A DNA stretch of 22,366 bases from a virus (Duplodnaviria; Heunggongvirae; Uroviricota; Caudoviricetes): the IMG/VR virus record IMGVR_UViG_2861079508_000002. One strand, given 5' to 3'. The position numbers and the translations under genes are program-made. Positions 2,234-21,106 of this stretch are shown here, in pieces (the first letter of the stretch is position 1; every line of letters starts with the position of its first letter). Under the pieces are notes generated by a model. That model had not been told where the DNA came from and searched no databases. It was given only the letters and a program-made list of their open reading frames with translations.

Positions 2234-2927
2234 GTTCACCTCCTTTGATTATGGTTAAATAGTCGAAATTTTCACCACTTCCCTTGTGGATATATTTACA
2301 TATAAAAGGTAACTAGTCACTAACCAACACAAATCTTTTTGAAGACAGATGGGGGGTGTTGAACGGTTTTTAAATGATTTCTTTGATTTTTAACAGCAAT
2401 AAGGAGCATTTTTAATGAAATTAGACGTTGATAATAACTTTTTGAGCAATCTTTACATATCATGGTAGCCTTCTATGCTGTTTTTCCAACTAAAAGATTG
2501 GCACATTTATCCGCTGGTAGTGGCGTTTTTTCGCCGCCAGCGCCTCTCTGGTTCCATTCCTTACATCTGTTCAAATTCAGCAACCCTTGCCGCGATCTTG
2601 CCGTTATCGAGAAGCTCTTTCGCTTTTCGGTTAATACTATCGGTCTTCATATTGCCAGCAGCATACGCCATCCGATAATTTCGATGCTACGCGCGCGTAC
2701 TTGTCGCAAAATATCAGGCAAAGGCCAGATTCAGAAAGTCGTGATAACCACCAGCACAACATGAGAGGTCATGTAACGCGATTTATCACACCAGATACAT
2801 GTGATTGGTGTACCCGCATAAAACATCGTCATAGCGCGTCCTGTGCGCATATACGCCGATAATCAACACATCACCACCACTCTGTCTTATGTAGAGAACA
2901 GTTTTATGGTGCTCCCCGCCATCGTGT

Positions 2928-5041: not shown

Positions 5042-6655
5042 ATGAGTCAGAAATACCTCATTCGGATCACTGAGCTGGAAAGGTTGCTCTCTGAGCAGGC
5101 TGAAGCCCTCCGTCAGAAAGACCAACAACTGAGTCTGGTTGAAGAGACGGAGGTCTTCCTGCGTTCTGCGCTGGCACGTGCCGAAGAAAAGATCGAAGAA
5201 GATGAGCGGGAAATAGAGCATCTGCGGGCCCAGGTGGAAAAACTGCGCCGGATGCTGTTCGGTACCCGTTCTGAAAAACTGCGTCGTGAAGTTGAACAGG
5301 CTGAAGCCCTGCTGAAACGACGCGAACAGAACAGCGATCGTTACAGCGGGCGTGAGGATGACCCGCAGGTTCCCCGCCAGTTGCGACAGTCGCGTCATCG
5401 TCGCCCGTTACCGGCGCATCTGCCCCGCGAAATAAACCGCCTGGAGCCAGAAGAAAGCTGTTGCCCGGAGTGTGGTGGTGAGCTGGATTATCTGGGGGAA
5501 GTCAGCGCAGAACAACTGGAACTGGTGAGCAGCGCCCTGAAAGTGATCCGCACAGAACGGGTAAAAAAAGCCTGTACAAAATGTGACTGCATCGTTGAAG
5601 CACCGGCACCGTCCCGTCCGATAGCGCGTGGTGTCGCGGGCCCGGGGTTACTTGCCCGCGTGTTAACGGGAAAATACTGCGAACACCTGCCACTGTATCG
5701 TCAGAGTGAAATCTTTGCCCGTCAGGGTGTCGAACTGAGCCGTGCGTTACTCTCCAACTGGGTTGACGCGTGCTGCCAGTTAATGACGCCGCTGAATGAT
5801 GCCCTGTACCGTTACGTGATGAACACCCGCAAGGTTCACACTGATGACACACCAGTAAAAGTGCTGGCACCGGGCAGGAAGAAGGCGAAAACAGGATATA
5901 TCTGGACGTATGTCCGGGATGACAGGAATGCCGGTTCGCCAGAGCCTCCGGCGGTCTGGTTCGCCTACTCACCGGATCATCAGGGGAAACATCCGGAGCA
6001 GCACCTTCGTCCCTTCCGGGGTATCCTGCAGGCAGATGCGTTTAATGGCTACGATCGGCTGTTCAGTGCCGGACGTGAAGGCGGCGCGTTGACGGAAGCA
6101 GGATGCTGGGCTCATGCGCGACGTAAAATCCACGATGTATATATCAGTACCAAAAGCGCGACAGCGGAAGAAGCCCTGAAACTAATCGGTGAACTGTACG
6201 CCATCGAGCACGATATACGCGGGTTACCGGTGTCTGAACGCCTGGCGGTCAGGCAAATGCAGAGTAGACCGCTCCTGACTTCCCTGTATAAGCTGATGCA
6301 GGAGAAAGAACACACGTTATCGAAGAAATGTCGTCTGGGAGATGCGTTCCGGTATATCCGGAAGCACTGGGCTGCGTTGTGCAACTTCTGTGATGATGGC
6401 CTGGCTGAGGTAGATAATAATGCCGCAGAAAGAGCGCTTCGTGCAGTCTGTCTCGGGAAGAAAAATTATGTGTTCTTCGGCAGCGATCACGGTGGCGAGC
6501 GTGGAGCACTGTTGTACGGGCTGATCGGCACCTGCCGACTGAACGGTATAGATCCGGAAGCGTATCTGCGCCATATCCTGGGTGTACTGCCGGAATGGCC
6601 TTCCAACCGTGTTGACGAGCTCCTGCCATGGAACGTAGCACTCACCAATAAATAA
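5042..6655 (+). CDS. tnpC: IS66-family transposase TnpC (Orf3), 537 aa
   Basis: Large third ORF with N-terminal coiled-coil-like region, Cys cluster CPECGG...CTKCDC and a long catalytic domain; ends 30 nt before the right IR. Confidence 0.9.
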   Translation: MSQKYLIRITELERLLSEQAEALRQKDQQLSLVEETEVFLRSALARAEEKIEEDEREIEHLRAQVEKLRRMLFGTRSEKLRREVEQAEALLKRREQNSDRYSGREDDPQVPRQLRQSRHRRPLPAHLPREINRLEPEESCCPECGGELDYLGEVSAEQLELVSSALKVIRTERVKKACTKCDCIVEAPAPSRPIARGVAGPGLLARVLTGKYCEHLPLYRQSEIFARQGVELSRALLSNWVDACCQLMTPLNDALYRYVMNTRKVHTDDTPVKVLAPGRKKAKTGYIWTYVRDDRNAGSPEPPAVWFAYSPDHQGKHPEQHLRPFRGILQADAFNGYDRLFSAGREGGALTEAGCWAHARRKIHDVYISTKSATAEEALKLIGELYAIEHDIRGLPVSERLAVRQMQSRPLLTSLYKLMQEKEHTLSKKCRLGDAFRYIRKHWAALCNFCDDGLAEVDNNAAERALRAVCLGKKNYVFFGSDHGGERGALLYGLIGTCRLNGIDPEAYLRHILGVLPEWPSNRVDELLPWNVALTNK

Positions 6656-6685
6656 GTATCAATACGGCACTCCGTTAACGCTTAC

Positions 6686-6693
6686 GTTCCTTT
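6686..6693. repeat. 8-bp target-site duplication GTTCCTTT, right copy
   Basis: Identical to 4152-4159. Confidence 0.8.
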
Positions 6694-8456
6694 CCATGTA
6701 CGCCTTTAAAGAAAGTTGCTGATTGCTTCCTGTTCCGGTGTAACGCATTAATAAACTTCTCAACACTGATATTTCCAGACGGATCAGTCGCCTTATCTAC
6801 AGCATTCTGAACTATGGCTGCTCGTGCGTTTTGCCTACCATTGTCATCCAGAAGCCTGTAAAGCTGAGAACGTTCTGATGGGCTTTGGCTAAAAACGAGT
6901 TTTGTTACATCCTCAGGCGTGGCCTTGCCGCTGGCTATTGCCTTTTGAACGCGCGTTCTTCCCATCATGTCATTGAATTTAGACCATGAGCGATCAACCC
7001 TTGCCATATTAATGGCTTCGTCTGCTCCAAGATTTTTGGCTACGGCTTTTTTCATATCCGCCGTATATGCCTTATAGATAATATCGCTGGCTTTCTGGAG
7101 CGTATCTTTATCAACAGTGTCAGATGACGCCATAAATCGCTTTCGAAGATCGGTTCTGTTTTCCCTCGCCAGACGCAGGTCATTTGGTCCGCTGGTGATA
7201 TCGTCTTTAAATTGCTGCAAGACTTTTACCGCGGCTCTATCCTGAGATTTACCCGGGCGGCTTAACACGGCAATCTGATTGTCGATAGCTTTTACCGTGT
7301 TTGAGAGATCGACAGGGGTATCCCCCATAGCGTCAATTATGCGGTTATATCGCTTTCCTGCTGCCTCAATGAATTTTTGTTGCCCTTTAGTCGCAGATTC
7401 ATAAAGCTGTTTATCAGAAATGCCACCCAGACCATCGCTAAATGTTCTGACTAAATTTTCTCGTGCTTGTTGTTGATTCAGCCGATTCTTACCGGTTCCA
7501 AAAAAAGGAACTCTTTCGCCTAATGTCTGAGCCTGACTCTGCATAAAGGTTTTATCTTTCAGCATGTCACTGGTCATTAACGGCAGATTTCTTTCCGATG
7601 CAAAGTCGACAGCAGCCTTTGCTTCAGGCGACATATCACCACGAACAGCCCTCGAAACCGCACTCGCTGTATTTTCCAGCCCCTTACCAATACCACCAAT
7701 GCCAGCAGAAATTACCGTTTGTAACGGATCAATATCTTCTCCACCAGCGAGGCTGGTGGCTCCCTGTAGTGCTAAATCTGTAGCTGCTGATTTCCCTATG
7801 GCCCCCAGCACCGTTCCGGCCCTGCCCGCTGGTGTAAACGCCAGCGCATTAGCCAGAAACGATGCCACGTCTTGCGGCGATAAACCCGGCTTGTTCAGAG
7901 CATAATCACCGGATGGCAGGGAAACGATAGTGTTACCCTTCTCATCCTGCCTTAATTTCGCTCCCATGCTCTGAAGAATCTTTTCCTGAGATGCGTCAGA
8001 GCCGAAAAGTTGAGACCATCGAGCTTTTAGAGCATCCATGCTGAGTGAGGTTAACTCTGGGGCAAGGTCGACATTTTGCAGTCTCTCCATCTCTGGAGTC
8101 ATTCGGCTTTCGCCTGTTATAGCATCGCGCATCGCAGCCCCAAGGCTGGCTCCCTGTTCTGCTGAACGCTCAAGCCCCTCTCTTTGCTGAGTAGCTAACT
8201 TTGCATACCCTGACGCAAGAGAATTATCAGATGATGTATGTTGAATATTTTGAGTTGCTGATTGGGATCGGTCTATTTCATTCGTTGATGGTAGTGGATA
8301 GGCAGCATAAAAAGCCTGCTTAGCCTGCTCTACACTTTCTCCGGCTTGCGGGGCCACGACTTCATTGAAGTATTGCTCCTGAGCCTGCGCTTTTTGTTCT
8401 GGTGCTAACGCCTGATACTGTGGAGAGGCGATAACATCTTTCCATGCTTTAGCCAT
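6686..8456 (-). pseudogene. 5' fragment (about 590 codons) of the IS-disrupted gene; large Gln/Ala-rich virion/ejection-like protein (P22 gp16-position)
   Basis: ORF-track ORF 6675..8456; its last 3 codons and stop are IS sequence. Start overlaps the upstream stop as TAATG at 8454-8458. Confidence 0.7.
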
Positions 8457-9877
8457 TAATCACCCCATAGTGAAGAAAAGTTACTGCTGGCTGCTGGCTG
8501 TGATACCTGCTCAGATTGCGGCAATGTCTGCGACGAAGAAGAAGTTCCTCTGTCAACTGCTAAAATAACCCGCAAAGCATCATAAGCTCGACCAGAAGCA
8601 GCTTTCAGCGAATTGAACTGGTTTTCCATCTTCCGGCGCTTGGTATCAATGGTTTTTGTGGAGTCGCCAGGCTGAGGGAAATACATTTGATAATATTTTG
8701 ACATTTCAGCAGGTACGATAGCTGCCCCTGTTTCCTGACGGAGTATTGCCATTATTGCGTCATTAGCATTAACAACGTATTGCTGCTCTGTTGGGCTGAG
8801 CGTTAAGTTAGCCAGCGTCCCATTACCCAAAGCATTATTAATGACCGCCACTCGCTGTGGGCTAAGCTGGTCTTTCAGTGTATCTATTGAATCAAGAGCA
8901 TCCCTAACCCTGTATGCAAATCCAGCAGCTTTTTTAGCCCCTTCTGGCGACTTTTCCATGATCTTTTGGGCTGTTGGCAAAGCTATTGGACGAAATCCAT
9001 CTCCAGATATTGGCTGGTTTAGTTTTCCCTGCTCTTCACTTCCGTCTGTGTAGTATTTTGTGACAGTGCCATCATCGTTTTCTCTAACACTCATTAATTT
9101 TTTGGCGTTTGTATTAATTCCAGCCGCTGCCGCAAATGCCGCCGCCCCCTCTGGATCCGCCTTTAACATTTGAGCGTACTGATTGTAATTCTGCATTGCT
9201 GCTGTTGGTGCATATGCTGACGTTAACGCATTTGCTCGGCTAATATCCTGCCCTCTCGCCTGAAGTGCTTCGCCAGCCTGATTGCTGCGGATTGTCTCTG
9301 CCAACTTGCCACGCTCAATATCCCGACCTTCCATTTGATCTTTGATATCGAAATACTTCTCATGACCGAGAGAAAACAGTGCCATACTACCAGCAAGCCG
9401 CTGGAACCCCTGTGGATCATTAACATGCATTTCGGCAACAGACTCAGGAGAAATTCCCAAGCGACGCATTTCATCTTCGTTATCTGCTATGAATTTTCCA
9501 AATGCCCCAGTTCCGAGCGAAGATGCGATTTGAGCACTAGTCGCAAGATGACCAATAGAATTTCTCTGGTCGTCATCAATAAAGCCCATCCCTTTCTGAA
9601 CGCTTTCAAATTCTTCTGGATACTCAGAAATAAGACTGCGCATTTTGTTTCTGTCTCCAGACTCAAAAGCCCCGGCATATGCTTTCTGAAACTCTGCTTT
9701 ACGCTGTTGTTGACGTGCCTGCTGATTAATCTCAGCAACGCCTCTTAGCCCCTGTAGCGCCATTAAACCTACGTTTGGCTGCTGCTGATACTGCACAGGC
9801 TGAGGAACGGAAGAACGAGGAGCATTATCATTTTGCGGTGCCATGCTAGGCAGCCCGCCAAGTTGCCATGTCGCCAT
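8456..9877 (-). CDS. 473-aa protein, candidate P22 gp20-like ejection protein
   Basis: Translationally coupled at both ends (TAATG). Size matches P22 gp20 (471 aa, from memory); Gln/Ala-rich. No profile search done. Confidence 0.5.
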   Translation of the reverse strand: MATWQLGGLPSMAPQNDNAPRSSVPQPVQYQQQPNVGLMALQGLRGVAEINQQARQQQRKAEFQKAYAGAFESGDRNKMRSLISEYPEEFESVQKGMGFIDDDQRNSIGHLATSAQIASSLGTGAFGKFIADNEDEMRRLGISPESVAEMHVNDPQGFQRLAGSMALFSLGHEKYFDIKDQMEGRDIERGKLAETIRSNQAGEALQARGQDISRANALTSAYAPTAAMQNYNQYAQMLKADPEGAAAFAAAAGINTNAKKLMSVRENDDGTVTKYYTDGSEEQGKLNQPISGDGFRPIALPTAQKIMEKSPEGAKKAAGFAYRVRDALDSIDTLKDQLSPQRVAVINNALGNGTLANLTLSPTEQQYVVNANDAIMAILRQETGAAIVPAEMSKYYQMYFPQPGDSTKTIDTKRRKMENQFNSLKAASGRAYDALRVILAVDRGTSSSSQTLPQSEQVSQPAASSNFSSLWGD

Positions 9878-10554
9878 TAGAATCCAAGCCCCCCAACAAG
9901 ACCAATAAGCCCACCACCAATAGCGCCGGCCGCAGTTCCTATTCCAGGAACAACGGAACCAAGTTGCGCACCCGCTAAAGCGCCTGATGCTGCCCCACCA
10001 ATACCACGCGCAAGACTGGATGGCTGCTGCGCCTGACCTGCACGAATAGCGCCAAGCCCCTGCAAGAGTTGTCCGGTATTATTGGCGTAGTTTTGCCCTG
10101 CCGTTGCCTGCCCTGATGCCGCATTCATCCCGACATTTAGCAGGTTTCCATAATTTTGCATTTGCCCACTAAGCCAATTGTTATAAAGCATGGGCGCAAT
10201 GGAAGATAACTGGTTACTGGTAGCTGTTGAGCCAAGCCCCCCGGTAGCTTCTGCTGAGACAAGGTTCTGATAACGGGCCTGATCTGCCTGTGTTTTATAT
10301 AAACCAGAACCAAAGAAATCATTCGCGGCTTTATTCTGCCCTTCCAGAGTCATCAGTCCTTGTAGTTGTTGTAAAGCAGGCAATCCGACTTCTGCATACG
10401 GCTTGAGATTATTCATCACCGTATTCCACTGCTCGCGCTGCAAATCAATTGCCTGCTGCTGGGCCTTCGCCTGAGCTTTAGAGGCACCACCATCACCGCC
10501 TTTTTCGTATACGGCACGATTGAGATGTTTATGAGCTATATGGGTAATTAACAT
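9877..10554 (-). CDS. 225-aa Gly/Ala/Gln-rich protein with glycine-zipper-like C-terminus, candidate P22 gp7-like ejection protein
   Basis: Start overlaps the upstream stop (ATGTTAA). N-terminal YEKGGDGGASK and C-terminal GIGGAASGALAGAQLGSVVPGIGTAAGAIGGGLIGLVGGLGF; size close to P22 gp7 (229 aa, recalled). Confidence 0.5.
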   Translation of the reverse strand: MLITHIAHKHLNRAVYEKGGDGGASKAQAKAQQQAIDLQREQWNTVMNNLKPYAEVGLPALQQLQGLMTLEGQNKAANDFFGSGLYKTQADQARYQNLVSAEATGGLGSTATSNQLSSIAPMLYNNWLSGQMQNYGNLLNVGMNAASGQATAGQNYANNTGQLLQGLGAIRAGQAQQPSSLARGIGGAASGALAGAQLGSVVPGIGTAAGAIGGGLIGLVGGLGF

Positions 10555-11009
10555 TCGCTGAATTCCTTATATTGTTGCCGAGTTAACTGATAAAGCGTTA
10601 CGCCGACGGGTTTACCACATCTGATATAAGCATCATCAAGGTGACCAACACGGGTAGCGCCAAGCAAACGGATAATTGCCCGTCCGTATTTCGTGGTGTC
10701 AGGAACCATGGTAATGCTGTTAAGGAATGGTGAGTTTTCGAGAAGCCATTTGCAGAATAATCGATGCCCTTGCAGTGCATATTCACCACGGAATCCGGGG
10801 TCGTACACCGCATGGCATTCAACAACGCTATGCCAGAAGTTACGCACTTCATGAACGCCAGCCAGCACCAATCCTTCGTAGATGCCGAGATATACCGCAT
10901 CAGGCTTGATGTAGTACGTGTGCCCCGGCTCAACAATATTTTCGGTATTGGCAGGCTCGTTAAGAAAGGCCTGTAATCGCACCGGGTTATCAATAAATTT
11001 TAGTTCCAT
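10548..11009 (-). CDS. 153-aa protein, first large gene of the operon (P22 gene-14 position)
   Basis: ATG at 11007-11009 with GGATGG about 10 nt upstream; stop overlaps the next start. Assignment by synteny only. Confidence 0.45.
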   Translation of the reverse strand: MELKFIDNPVRLQAFLNEPANTENIVEPGHTYYIKPDAVYLGIYEGLVLAGVHEVRNFWHSVVECHAVYDPGFRGEYALQGHRLFCKWLLENSPFLNSITMVPDTTKYGRAIIRLLGATRVGHLDDAYIRCGKPVGVTLYQLTRQQYKEFSEC

Positions 11010-17067: not shown

Positions 17068-17258
17068 TTTTCACCACCAAGAATTACCAGCTCTGCACGG
17101 GCATCGTTAACCAAAGATGAGCACGCTTTAATCGCATCCACGACATCAGCAGCGTCCATTTCTTCAGCCGAAAGACTGACAGCAACCAGGACAGCCGCTG
17201 CTTGCTCGATTAATTGAAGTGCGGACGTAAGGCGAGGGGTATTAATTGAGTTATTCAT
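17064..17258 (-). CDS. 64-aa hypothetical protein (preferred ATG at 17258; track start 17315 is GTG)
   Basis: ATG at 17256-17258 has GGGGG about 7 nt upstream and forms an ATGAATAA overlap with the upstream stop. Confidence 0.45.
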   Translation of the reverse strand: MNNSINTPRLTSALQLIEQAAAVLVAVSLSAEEMDAADVVDAIKACSSLVNDARAELVILGGEK

Positions 17259-17469
17259 TGGTTGCCCCCGTTTTGCATGGCATTTGTCCACCTTCCAGCA
17301 GGAAATGAACGTCACGAACGGCGAGATCCAATATCGCGAGTAACGCCTTCAGTTTTTCGTCTCGTGAGGGAGAGTTGCTCACCAGAATGTCATTAATCAC
17401 TTCTGTCAGTGTGATGATCTGGCTTGTGCGTTCGAGGGGATCCATATGCACATCGTAGGTTTTAATCAT
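17251..17469 (-). CDS. 72-aa hypothetical protein; may be an independent gene or the C-terminus of the long ORF from 18282
   Basis: ATG at 17467-17469 with strong GGAGGTG SD; balanced helical-looking composition (MIKTYDVHMDPLERTSQIITLTEVINDILV...). In frame with ORF 17251..18282. Confidence 0.5.
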   Translation of the reverse strand: MIKTYDVHMDPLERTSQIITLTEVINDILVSNSPSRDEKLKALLAILDLAVRDVHFLLEGGQMPCKTGATNE

Positions 17470-17656
17470 GTGCCACCTCCATGCGGATACGACCAGCAAA
17501 AAAGCAGACGTGATCGCGCACCAGAGAACGGCGAGCATCGCGTTCAGACTCGGCAGCAATATGATGAATTTTGGCGGTAATTGTCGGGCAATCGCGGCGA
17601 ACTGCGGCGATAATCCAGATAAATTGCGGTTTTTGGGTAGGGGTAGTAGCCAGCAT
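17462..17656 (-). CDS. 64-aa hypothetical protein, overlaps the long ORF in another frame
   Basis: GGAGG 7 nt upstream of the ATG at 17654-17656; stop overlaps the ATG of the 72-aa gene. Conflicts with the long-ORF model. Confidence 0.4.
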   Translation of the reverse strand: MLATTPTQKPQFIWIIAAVRRDCPTITAKIHHIAAESERDARRSLVRDHVCFFAGRIRMEVAHD

Positions 17657-18282
17657 GTGGCATCCTCCGATAACGTTGGCTTGTTATAACCACCGCAGAA
17701 GAGACCAATCTTGCTGGCGGTGGACTGTACGGAGTTGGCCTTACTGGCGTTATCGGAAACCAGCCTACCCGAAGGTAGCCCCATACAGCCCACCATTGAT
17801 AAGGTGTGCGTGTGCGCCGATACAAAAAAAGACGCTGGCGCGTCATGTATCGCCGATAACTCCAGCAGGAGGCCAATCCCGGCACCCGTTTTATGAGGTG
17901 CCTTATAACCATAAACCGTGTTGCCGCATAACGGCAAGCTCTTTTTTATGGACTCCGAAAACTCACTATTGGAAGAACCAGAAGCACAGTACATCGCGCT
18001 CATTTCGTTAACGTCACGCGCATGGACGAAGGTTTTTGTGGAGTCACTACGCGAGAAGAGAAAGCCATCTACGACCAGAAATTCTCTGGCGCAGCCGCTG
18101 ACCTTCTCAACGCTAACACCATCGACCGTAATTTCTGACATGGTTAAGGCATCCGCTCCTACCACCAGCAAATGACAAACTTTGCTTGTATCTGCTGTAT
18201 TAATGCCTGACTTTGCTGTCATATTGCTGGATTTTGGCGACATACCAGCCAGTGAAAATATCTTCTTCTGGACGGTTAGCAT
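17470..18282 (-). other. ambiguous stretch: upstream part of ORF 17251..18282 (strong GGAGG SD at 18282), no in-frame stop, contains terminator-like hairpins
   Basis: Start at 18280-18282 overlaps the upstream stop by 7 nt. Minus-strand hairpin GACGC-GCCA-GCGTC plus T7 at 17824-17844; plus-strand hairpin TTGCCG-CATAA-CGGCAA plus T6 at 17921-17947. Several frames open on both strands. Confidence 0.3.
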
Positions 18283-21011: not shown

Positions 21012-21106
21012 TGCGTCACCTTTTACGCTGCGCCTTATTTTGTGATTGAGCCAGGCGGTAAGGCTTCCCGCTTTTCGCCCCGTCGAGCTAGGCTCAATCT
21101 ATTCAG

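What the first reader, a model, noticed from the sequence alone, without database searches (positions are those of the whole stretch)
17462..18282. Ambiguous stretch in the early operon: long ORF, embedded SD-equipped small ORF and convergent terminator-like hairpins
A gene clearly starts at 18282 (GGAGG SD, coupled to the upstream stop) but has no in-frame stop for 343 codons. Its middle is low-complexity, and it contains a minus-strand hairpin plus T7 (17824-17844) and a plus-strand hairpin plus T6 (17921-17947). A 64-aa ORF with its own GGAGG overlaps it out of frame, and the last 72 codons have their own strong SD. This could be a frameshifted or decaying gene, or a non-coding regulatory locus. 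By analogy, P4 controls its replication operon with a small immunity RNA upstream of the primase.
Basis: inference. Interest (0 to 1): 0.5.

Follow-up and report, generated by a model that had tools for sequence, protein, structure and literature searches.

The report
P4-type RNA immunity switch inside read-through ORF
The ambiguous stretch is the immunity switch of a phage satellite island: a promoter, a leader RNA with a terminator and a C4/CI antisense RNA, all embedded in a long open reading frame as in satellite phage P4, so it is a well-understood kind of element and not a decaying gene.

Summary
Rfam finds a C4/CI antisense RNA (17800-17713, 77 bits) and an IsrK-type leader RNA (17901-17825, 62 bits). 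The 64-aa ORF is an Icd/Kil-family cell-division inhibitor.

Two C4 segments are complementary to sites in the leader and to sites just before icd, one covering its ribosome-binding site. All three partners co-vary in 47 of 48 related loci.

The 343-codon ORF is not decaying. It corresponds to P4 eta, which starts upstream of the internal promoter and is translationally coupled to the preceding gene. It stays open in every satellite locus examined, across four different RNA cassettes. Its Pfam "Ash" domain is simply the translation of the RNA genes.

Unlike P4, the ORF crosses icd one base out of frame and joins the next gene in frame.

The plus-strand "terminator" is the -35 hexamer, spacer and upstream A-tract of the internal promoter.

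Side observation: the ORF's N-terminal part contains an antisense copy of the phage P22 pac-site region.

Verdict: a new member of a known kind; modest interest.

The parts
17251..18282 (-). Long eta-like ('Ash family') ORF of 343 codons. It starts upstream of the internal promoter and is coupled to the DUF4222 gene. It reads through the leader, terminator t1, C4, the icd region (shifted one base from the icd frame) and the next 72-aa gene (in frame).
   Evidence: The Pfam Phage_ASH match covers aa 124-220, i.e. nt ~17913-17623. P4 Eta gives the same domain. The ORF is intact in 5/5 relatives. It has 0 stops against 7 and 9 in the other sense frames of the N-terminal part.
17908..17947 (-). 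Inferred constitutive internal promoter, equivalent to P4 PLE. A-tract AAAAAAGAG 17947-17939; -35 TTGCCG 17937-17932; 18-nt spacer; -10 TATGGT 17913-17908; 6 nt to the RNA 5' end at about 17901.
   Evidence: The same -35/17-18 nt/-10/6-7 nt geometry precedes the leader in P4, in about 40 P4-type loci and in a Stx2 phage. The consensus scan did not call it.
17921..17947 (+). It is formed by the -35 hexamer, the complementary CGGCAA in the promoter spacer, and the complement of the A-tract. It is probably incidental.
   Evidence: The hairpin is not conserved in P4-type promoters.
17825..17901 (-). Leader RNA (Rfam isrK; P4 seqA leader) ending in intrinsic terminator t1.
   Evidence: Rfam RF01394, 61.9 bits against a gathering score of 50. 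The P4 leader gives 60.8 bits.
17870..17877 (-). a1 target ATTGGCCT, complementary to C4 a'.
17853..17860 (-). b1 target GTTATCGG, complementary to C4 loop b'.
17824..17844 (-). t1-like intrinsic terminator: stem 17844-17831 plus U7 17830-17824.
17713..17800 (-). C4/CI-type antisense immunity RNA. Specificity segments: b' CCGATAAC 17756-17749 (loop of hairpin 2) and a' AGGCCAA 17741-17735 (junction).
   Evidence: Rfam RF01695, 77.1 bits against a gathering score of 45. My own covariance model gives 104.8 bits. The structure is 99.7% paired, with 13 of 27 pairs showing compensatory changes.
17702..17709 (-). a2 target ATTGGTCT, starting 4-5 nt after C4.
17664..17675 (-). b2 target CGTTATCGGAGG, which covers the icd Shine-Dalgarno sequence GGAGG (17668-17664).
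17462..17656 (-). icd/kil-like gene (64 aa), the first gene translated from the internal promoter.
   Evidence: NCBIfam phage_ICD_like, 71.7 bits against a cutoff of 25. P4 Kil scores 76.1 bits and P1 Icd 52.6 bits.
17251..17469 (-). 72-aa ORF with its own SD (17480-17476). Its ATG overlaps the end of icd. It is in frame with the long ORF and forms its C-terminus.
   Evidence: A Klebsiella homologue keeps a similar sequence (P0078). No Pfam or PHROG family matches. PGAP does not call it separately.
18028..18134 (+). Fragment homologous to phage P22 gene 3 (small terminase), starting exactly at the pac site. It lies antisense inside the N-terminal part of the long ORF. The pac-like 22-mer is 18028-18049.

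Best explanation
The stretch is the immunity and early-control region of an EcCIMP1-like phage-inducible chromosomal island (a phage satellite). It is built like the P4 PLE-seqA-t1-cI-seqC-kil region embedded in eta.

The RNA switch. An internal promoter (-35 at 17937-17932, -10 at 17913-17908; inferred) starts a leader RNA at about 17901. The leader carries target sites a1 and b1 and ends at intrinsic terminator t1 (17844-17824). Read-through transcripts contain the C4/CI-type RNA (17800-17713), which by analogy with P1 and P4 is cut out and accumulates.

The C4 segments a' and b' pair with a1/b1 in the leader and with a2/b2 downstream; this complementarity and its covariation are shown. Pairing with b2 should cover the icd ribosome-binding site. 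The expected result (inferred) is no icd translation, premature termination, and silent downstream replication genes including the primase. Pairing with a1/b1 should enhance termination at t1 and so autoregulate C4 (inferred from P4).

The long ORF. The 343-codon ORF is the eta counterpart. It begins upstream of the internal promoter and is translationally coupled to the alpA-AntA-DUF4222 gene chain, so it can be translated only on transcripts from an upstream promoter. Ribosomes crossing t1, C4 and the icd region would prevent terminator formation and Rho action, making upstream-initiated (induced) transcription insensitive to immunity. This step is inferred from P4.

The ORF appears to be kept for being translated, not for its product.
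For: RNA genes:
- Rfam gives C4 77.1 bits and isrK 61.9 bits. P4, P1, a Punavirus and a Stx2 phage show the same pair in the same order.
- A covariance model found C4 upstream of icd, with icd starting about 55 nt after C4's end, in 42 of the 43 loci retrieved from other species. The structure is 99.7% paired, 13 pairs have compensatory changes, and 0 of 500 shuffles reach the observed values.

Targets:
- In 47 of 48 loci, a' and b' match a1/b1 and a2/b2 at fixed positions. There are 10 a-types, 18 b-types and 29 combinations. The method recovers the annotated P1 sites.
- A 97%-identical island (L002) has a different b' with matching changes at b1 and b2.
- b2 overlaps the icd SD.

icd: it scores 71.7 bits for the Icd family, and P4 Kil belongs to the same family.

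Promoter: its geometry is conserved across three sequence families.

Long ORF:
- All 45 satellite loci (the window, P4, L002 and the 42 species loci with C4) keep one frame open across C4. In the 42 whose held sequence reaches far enough, it runs from at least 111 nt (at least 214 nt in 41 of them) upstream of C4 to the icd stop or beyond.
- Five of five E. coli relatives keep a 342-355-aa ORF over four different RNA cassettes, one of them 36 nt longer.
- The N-terminal part has 0 stops against 7 and 9 in the other sense frames.
- Substitutions there are spread evenly over codon positions (52/52/66), with a nonsynonymous:synonymous ratio of 2:1.
- In the captured P22 fragment, the in-frame stop present in P22 is mutated away.

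P4 precedent: PMC10111431 summarises the P4 mechanism and notes that the C4 and isrK profiles hit satellite 'Bro' genes.
Against: - There is no expression data. The promoter, RNA processing, termination and anti-termination are all inferred by homology.
- The consensus promoter scan did not call the internal promoter.
- The open frame is partly a property of the cassette itself. P1-like phages carrying the same C4 type also have a frame open 128-200 nt upstream of C4, so openness alone does not prove selection in satellites.
- The codon-position test rests on few substitutions.
- Unlike P4, icd is not the in-frame end of the long ORF, so the P4 model does not transfer exactly.
- In Gifsy-1 the homologous leader, IsrK, acts as an activator in trans (PMC4825925), so the sign of leader action here is uncertain.
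Confidence: 0.8

Rival explanations
1. The long ORF is an accidental open frame with no function. The locus is purely non-coding between the DUF4222 gene and icd, and 'Ash family protein' is an annotation artefact caused by translating conserved RNA genes.
For: - The Phage_ASH domain maps exactly onto the leader-C4-icd-leader stretch.
- The amino-acid sequence across it changes completely between cassette types.
- The N-terminal part has no family hit and shows no amino-acid constraint.
- PGAP is inconsistent, calling an ORF that I found intact a pseudogene in two relatives.
- Phage copies of the cassette also lack stops in one frame.
Against: - The ORF has an SD and a start that overlaps the upstream stop.
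- It has 0 stops against 7 and 9 in the other sense frames over 345 nt that are not RNA-constrained.
- The frame is preserved across cassette swaps, including one of +36 nt.
- An open frame across C4 is present in all 45 satellite loci.
- A stop present in the P22 source sequence has been removed.
- P4 eta is reported to be translated and to prevent termination (PMC10111431).
Confidence: 0.12
2. The long ORF encodes a genuine regulatory protein (an Ash/'Bro network' factor) whose sequence matters. The RNA matches are secondary.
For: - The ORF is conserved in length in many E. coli and Klebsiella clusters.
- PHROG hits carry labels such as 'transcriptional regulator/repressor'.
- Some relatives fuse an AntA domain to the Ash domain (P0010 and P0019).
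- The N-terminal motif QK..FSLAG recurs, including in P4 Eta.
Against: - RNA covariation, not codon conservation, explains the conserved core.
- Different cassettes give unrelated peptides in otherwise 95-97% identical islands.
- The N-terminal part contains an antisense terminase fragment.
- Substitutions there look neutral.
- The PHROG labels trace back to the historical annotation of the P4 'cI gene product'.
Confidence: 0.05
3. The locus works the Gifsy-1 IsrK way. The short leader RNA acts in trans as an activator. It pairs with the long transcript or with C4, opens the structure and turns on translation of the downstream genes. It does not serve mainly as a C4 target for termination.
For: - The leader is an Rfam isrK member.
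- In Gifsy-1, IsrK in trans activates anrP translation 140-fold through an ORF that overlaps the C4-like STnc1160 RNA (PMC4825925).
- The predicted fold of the window transcript pairs the leader's a1/b1 region with C4 in cis.
Against: - Here the gene order (C4, then icd with b2 over its SD, then the primase operon) matches P4 and P1, where C4/CI is the repressor.
- The two models are compatible: a leader that titrates C4 would be an anti-repressor.
Confidence: 0.25

Closest known systems
Satellite phage P4 immunity region: PLE - seqA - t1 - cI (CI RNA) - seqC - kil, nested in eta
   Same: - Same order of elements and the same two Rfam hits.
- Same promoter geometry.
- A Kil/Icd-family first gene.
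- A long ORF starting upstream of the internal promoter, coupled to the upstream gene and carrying the Phage_ASH domain.
- A primase operon downstream.
   Different: - In P4, kil is the in-frame end of eta. Here the long ORF crosses icd shifted by one base and ends with the next gene.
- The leader-to-C4 spacing is 24 nt here against about 107 nt in P4.
- The C4 stem sequence is of the type found in P1-like and Stx phages.
- About 345 nt of extra mosaic sequence lie between the ORF start and the promoter.
- Three extra genes lie between alpA and the ORF.
Phage P1/P7 immI: a1 b1 - c4 - a2 b2 - icd - ant
   Same: - Two-part antisense recognition (a', b') with duplicated targets, and b2 over the icd RBS.
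- The window cassette is 85% identical at nucleotide level to that of a Punavirus.
   Different: - The gene controlled downstream is a replication operon, not the ant antirepressor. Here an AntA gene lies upstream.
- P1 has no long ORF spanning c4.
Salmonella Gifsy-1 IsrK - orf45 (STnc1160) - anrP
   Same: The leader belongs to the same Rfam family, ends in the same terminator and is followed by a C4-like RNA.
   Different: - In Gifsy-1 the described role is activation in trans of an antirepressor.
- No eta-like ORF starts upstream of the promoter in lambdoid contexts, where the frame closes 71-122 nt before C4.
E. coli PICI EcCIMP1 (helper: P22-like phage Kapi1), PMC11773190
   Same: The same island gene set is reported: integrase, AlpA, antirepressor, Ash family protein, primase, and DUF2824 / DNA-transfer-like genes.
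   Different: - Identity to EcCIMP1 was not tested at sequence level.
- In the passages I searched, that paper lists the Ash gene as a conserved protein gene, the term 'antisense' does not occur in its text, and its packaging signal is left open.

Membership tests
C4 antisense RNA (Rfam RF01695; P1 C4 / P4 CI) | Covariance-model score at or above the gathering threshold | tested here: met
   77.1 bits against 45, full-length match 1-87.
C4 antisense RNA (Rfam RF01695; P1 C4 / P4 CI) | Long outer stem enclosing two hairpins, supported by compensatory changes | tested here: met
   On 47 distinct sequences, 99.7% of cells are paired and 13 of 27 pairs change on both sides. Slid controls give 30-51% paired. 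The alignment was fitted to the model, which favours the structure.
C4 antisense RNA (Rfam RF01695; P1 C4 / P4 CI) | Two specificity segments complementary to targets on the same transcript, one target covering the RBS of the downstream icd/kil gene | tested here: met
   a' pairs with a1 and a2 (7 nt each); b' pairs with b1 (8 nt) and b2 (12 nt, covering GGAGG). The partners co-vary in 47/48 loci.
C4 antisense RNA (Rfam RF01695; P1 C4 / P4 CI) | Mature RNA is processed from a longer transcript and represses downstream genes | not testable with these tools
   Needs Northern blots, RACE and reporter assays.
isrK / P4 seqA leader (Rfam RF01394) | Covariance-model score at or above the gathering threshold, ending in an intrinsic terminator | tested here: met
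   61.9 bits against 50. The terminator stem plus U7 lies at 17844-17824.
isrK / P4 seqA leader (Rfam RF01394) | Sigma-70 promoter directly upstream of the RNA 5' end | tested here: inconclusive
   TTGCCG-18 nt-TATGGT-6 nt-G has the same geometry as in P4-type loci and a Stx2 phage. It falls below the threshold of the consensus scan. No transcription start data are available.
P4 eta/kil nested-gene arrangement | Long ORF that starts upstream of the internal promoter, is coupled to the upstream gene, and reads through the leader, the RNA gene and the downstream target | tested here: met
   ATG at 18282 with an SD, overlapping the DUF4222 stop; open through to 17251. P4 eta spans 8767-8168 in the same way.
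P4 eta/kil nested-gene arrangement | kil/icd is the in-frame C-terminal part of the long ORF | tested here: not met
   The icd ATG at 17656 falls on codon position 3 of the long ORF, which continues 72 codons past icd in frame with the next gene. All 42 species loci with C4, and P4, are in frame. Many E. coli and Klebsiella ORFs share the window's arrangement.
P4 eta/kil nested-gene arrangement | Translation of the long ORF prevents termination of transcripts started upstream | not testable with these tools
   Known for P4 only through the summary in PMC10111431. The primary papers were not available.
Icd/Kil cell-division inhibitor (NCBIfam NF033153) | HMM score above the curated cutoff | tested here: met
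   71.7 bits against 25. P4 Kil scores 76.1 and P1 Icd 52.6.
Pfam Phage_ASH (PF10554) | HMM score above the gathering threshold | tested here: met
   37.3 bits against 26, at aa 124-220. The matched DNA is the promoter, leader, C4 and icd leader, so membership reflects RNA-gene conservation and not a protein fold.

The most novel reading that the evidence does not exclude
The eta-like ORF is a 'translated spacer', selected only so that ribosomes travel across the immunity terminators. Because its peptide does not matter, it has become a landing pad for other cis elements.

In this island lineage it has absorbed the pac-site region of a P22-type small-terminase gene in antisense orientation. 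The one in-frame stop codon of that fragment, which lies inside the pac 22-mer, has been mutated away.

If that fragment still works as a packaging signal, it would be the missing packaging site of EcCIMP1-like islands mobilised by P22-like phages. One kilobase would then combine immunity, anti-termination and packaging.
Probability: 0.2. Interest if true: 0.5.

Novelty: new member of a known kind. Interest (0 to 1): 0.25.

Why it matters
- Annotation. RefSeq labels this kilobase 'ash family protein', or a pseudogene plus Icd, and omits two RNA genes, a promoter, a terminator and a 72-aa gene. The Pfam Ash domain turns out to be the translation of RNA genes.
- Satellite biology. Closely related islands differ mainly in the a'/b' specificity cassette. 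Together with the matched targets, this marks the cassette as the immunity-type determinant and makes cross-immunity between islands predictable from sequence.
- The out-of-frame variant of the eta/kil arrangement. It is a natural test of whether only ribosome transit, and not the Eta peptide, is needed for read-through.
- None of this changes the established P4/P1 picture.

Tried and rejected
1. My first reading was that the 343-aa ORF is a spurious frame over RNA genes. I dropped it after finding uninterrupted 329-376-aa homologues, P4 eta and the frame statistics.
2. I argued that the open frame is specific to satellites (0 of 3 phage contexts). A larger sample weakened this. Lambdoid phages close the frame 71-122 nt before C4, but P1-like phages with this cassette keep it open 128-200 nt upstream.
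3. The codon-position and dN/dS-like test on the N-terminal part is consistent with no amino-acid constraint, but it rests on at most 27 substitutions per pair.
4. Pfam and PHROG searches of the N-terminal 115 aa and of the 72-aa ORF found nothing.
5. The Rfam c4-a1b1 family hits P1 and P4 but not the window at E <= 1.
6. The primary P4 papers (PMC94026, PMC176756) are not held. P4 mechanism statements therefore rest on PMC10111431 and on my own recollection.
7. The plus-strand hairpin as a real terminator: rejected, because it is made of promoter elements and is not conserved.
8. PGAP 'pseudogene' calls in relatives as evidence of decay: rejected, because the ORF is intact in those sequences.
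9. I looked for helper phage Kapi1 among the carriers of the pac-like fragment. It was not in the rows shown, so the question stays open.
Full report
**Observation.**
- The ORF 18282-17251 has 343 codons.
- Its ATG is preceded by GGAGG (18294-18290) and overlaps the stop of the upstream DUF4222 gene.
- The hairpin at 17844-17831 plus T7, and the plus-strand hairpin at 17921-17937 plus T6, are both found by the scan.
- The 64-aa ORF (17656-17462) and the last 72 codons (from the ATG at 17469) each have their own GGAGG.

**The RNA genes.**
- An Rfam scan at gathering thresholds gives C4 antisense RNA at 17800-17713 (77.1 bits) and isrK at 17901-17825 (61.9 bits). Both are full-length and on the minus strand.
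- P4 gives the same two hits in the same order at its cI locus, and so do P1, a Punavirus and a Stx2 phage. One Stx2 record already annotates both RNAs.
- The window cassette is 85% identical at nucleotide level to the c4-icd region of a P1-like phage.
- The 64-aa ORF belongs to the Icd family (71.7 bits). P4 Kil and P1 Icd belong to it too.

**Evidence that the RNA works as an antisense regulator.**
- I retrieved 43 icd-encoding loci from other enterobacterial species.
- I then built a covariance model for C4. It found C4 in 42 of those 43 loci, with icd starting about 55 nt after C4's end.
- The three-helix structure is 99.7% paired. Thirteen of 27 pairs show changes on both sides. Controls with slid partners give 30-51% pairing.
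- The variable parts of C4 are the loop of hairpin 2 (b') and the junction after it (a').
- In 47 of 48 loci, a' has a 7-nt complement in the leader (a1) and another 3-5 nt after C4 (a2).
- In the same loci, b' has an 8-9-nt complement in the leader (b1) and an 8-12-nt complement 33-38 nt after C4 (b2). In most loci, including the window, b2 runs into the icd Shine-Dalgarno sequence.
- There are 10 a-types and 18 b-types in 29 combinations. The procedure recovers the annotated P1 sites.
- In the window the sites are a1 17877-17870, b1 17860-17853, b' 17756-17749, a' 17741-17735, a2 17709-17702 and b2 17675-17664.
- An island 97% identical to the window carries a different b', with matching changes at b1 and b2.
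- This three-way covariation is the strongest evidence that the locus is a working immunity determinant.

**Promoter and the plus-strand hairpin.**
- Upstream of the leader lies TTGCCG, then 18 nt, then TATGGT, then 6 nt to the RNA 5' end.
- The same geometry precedes the leader in P4, in about 40 P4-type loci (TTGC.., 18 nt, TATAGT) and in a Stx2 phage.
- The plus-strand 'terminator' is made of the -35 hexamer, a complementary CGGCAA in the spacer, and the complement of an upstream A-tract (AAAAAAGAG, 17947-17939).
- That hairpin is not conserved in the P4-type promoters, so I treat it as incidental.
- The promoter itself is inferred. The consensus scan did not call it.

**The long ORF.**
- I first took it for an artefact. 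The Pfam Phage_ASH match covers aa 124-220, which is nt ~17913-17623: exactly the promoter, the leader, C4 and the icd leader.
- A protein search then returned many uninterrupted relatives of 329-376 aa.
- P4 has the same thing. Its eta ORF (8767-8168) starts at the stop of orf88, reads through the leader and the CI RNA gene, and ends as kil. It carries the same Ash domain.
- PMC10111431 summarises the P4 work as follows:
  - the constitutive promoter is internal to eta;
  - its transcript is terminated through CI/seqA interactions;
  - Kil is a truncated Eta;
  - full-length Eta is translated only from an upstream late promoter;
  - its translation prevents termination.
- That paper also notes that the C4 and isrK profiles hit such genes in Gram-negative PICIs.
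- In my sample, all 45 satellite loci (the window, P4, L002 and the 42 species loci) keep one frame open across C4. Where the held sequence reaches far enough (42 loci), that frame runs from at least 111 nt upstream of C4 (at least 214 nt in 41 of them) to the icd stop or beyond. In every locus but the window, both other frames stop inside C4 or within 5 nt of its end; in the window one of them stays open for 166 nt past C4.
- Five of five E. coli relatives keep a 342-355-aa ORF although they carry four different RNA cassettes, one of them 36 nt longer. This includes two relatives where PGAP calls a pseudogene.
- The N-terminal 345 nt, which no RNA gene constrains, have 0 stops in frame against 7 and 9 in the other sense frames.
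- Substitutions there are spread evenly over codon positions (52/52/66), with a nonsynonymous:synonymous ratio of 2:1.
- No protein family matches that part.
- My reading is that the ORF is kept open in order to be translated, and not for its peptide.
- Counted as a gene, it closes an otherwise ~620-nt untranslated gap in a chain of overlapping ORFs running from alpA to the primase.

**Caveat on the open frame.** P1-like phages carrying the same C4 type also have a frame open 128-200 nt upstream of C4, whereas lambdoid phages close it 71-122 nt upstream. Part of the openness is therefore a property of the cassette itself.

**Difference from P4.**
- In P4 and in all 42 species loci with C4, the long ORF is in frame with kil/icd and ends at its stop.
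- In the window the icd ATG falls on codon position 3 of the long ORF. The ORF therefore crosses icd shifted by one base and joins the next 72-aa gene in frame.
- The shift arises from an indel in the few bases between the SD and the first icd codons.
- The arrangement is common among E. coli, Klebsiella and Pluralibacter ORFs in the database, with at least two different downstream genes.
- The +1 frame over icd is free of stops in 37 of 45 loci, against 2 of 45 for the +2 frame. I did not establish whether that reflects selection or composition.

**Context.**
- The island carries an integrase, an int-alpA RNA, AlpA, an AntA antirepressor, DUF4222, this locus, a primase-helicase, and then DUF2824, P22 gp7-like and gp20-like ejection genes and an IS66 element.
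- It sits next to yicC in an identical E. coli genome.
- This gene set matches the description of EcCIMP1, a PICI mobilised by the P22-like phage Kapi1, whose packaging mechanism is unknown (PMC11773190).

**Side observation inside the finding.**
- Plus-strand 18028-18134 is 87% identical to phage P22 gene 3, beginning exactly at the annotated 22-bp pac site.
- It lies antisense inside the long ORF.
- The pac 22-mer itself has 6 changes in 22 positions. The rest of the aligned fragment is about 90% identical, with a 47-nt core that is fully conserved.
- In P22 the corresponding antisense frame has a TAA inside pac. In the window that stop is gone.

**Verdict.** This is a P4-type RNA immunity switch nested in an eta-like read-through ORF. 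It is a new member of a known kind, with a frame variant and a few annotation lessons.
- The 'decaying gene' alternative was wrong.
- The RNA locus and the long ORF coexist.
- Expression, processing, termination and anti-termination are all inferred by homology and remain to be tested.

Noticed in passing
window 18028-18134 (+): A 107-nt fragment is 87% identical to phage P22 gene 3 (small terminase), starting exactly at the annotated pac site. It lies antisense inside the long ORF. The pac 22-mer is 16/22 identical, and the in-frame TAA present in P22 is absent here. It could be the packaging signal of this EcCIMP1-like island, or a relic.
   Followed up: partly
window 6675-11009 (-) and 5042-6655 (+): The island carries P22-type DNA-ejection genes (DUF2824, gp7-like, gp20-like Inj_translocase, then a 593-aa ORF), followed by an IS66 transposase. 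This fits a satellite of P22-like phages.
   Followed up: partly
window 21032-21098 (-): Rfam int-alpA RNA (60.6 bits) lies between the integrase gene and the next ORF.
   Followed up: no
window 17251-17469 (-); L002 ~2629-2847; L053: The 72-aa ORF after icd has a strong SD and a conserved Klebsiella homologue. PGAP does not annotate it as a separate gene in relatives, which leaves a ~200-nt gap. No family matches it.
   Followed up: partly
L028 (Mangrovibacter yixingensis), leader upstream of C4 at 181-268: This is the only locus of 48 in which the leader a1/b1 sites do not match its own C4. They match another immunity type, while a2/b2 do match. It looks like a recombinant with a mismatched leader.
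   Followed up: no
L002, L050, L051, L053 versus window 17660-17900: Islands that are 95-97% identical in the flanks carry four different leader/C4 cassettes, one of P4 type and 36 nt longer. The immunity cassette is exchanged as a unit.
   Followed up: partly
L075 (IMG/VR contig), 1019-1038 and 2585-2604 (-): Two copies of the window-type C4 lie 1.5 kb apart on one viral contig, each followed by a P1-type icd.
   Followed up: no
icd/kil genes of 45 loci: The +1 frame across icd has no stop in 37 of 45 loci, against 2 of 45 for the +2 frame. This holds even where the long ORF does not use the +1 frame. The cause was not determined.
   Followed up: no
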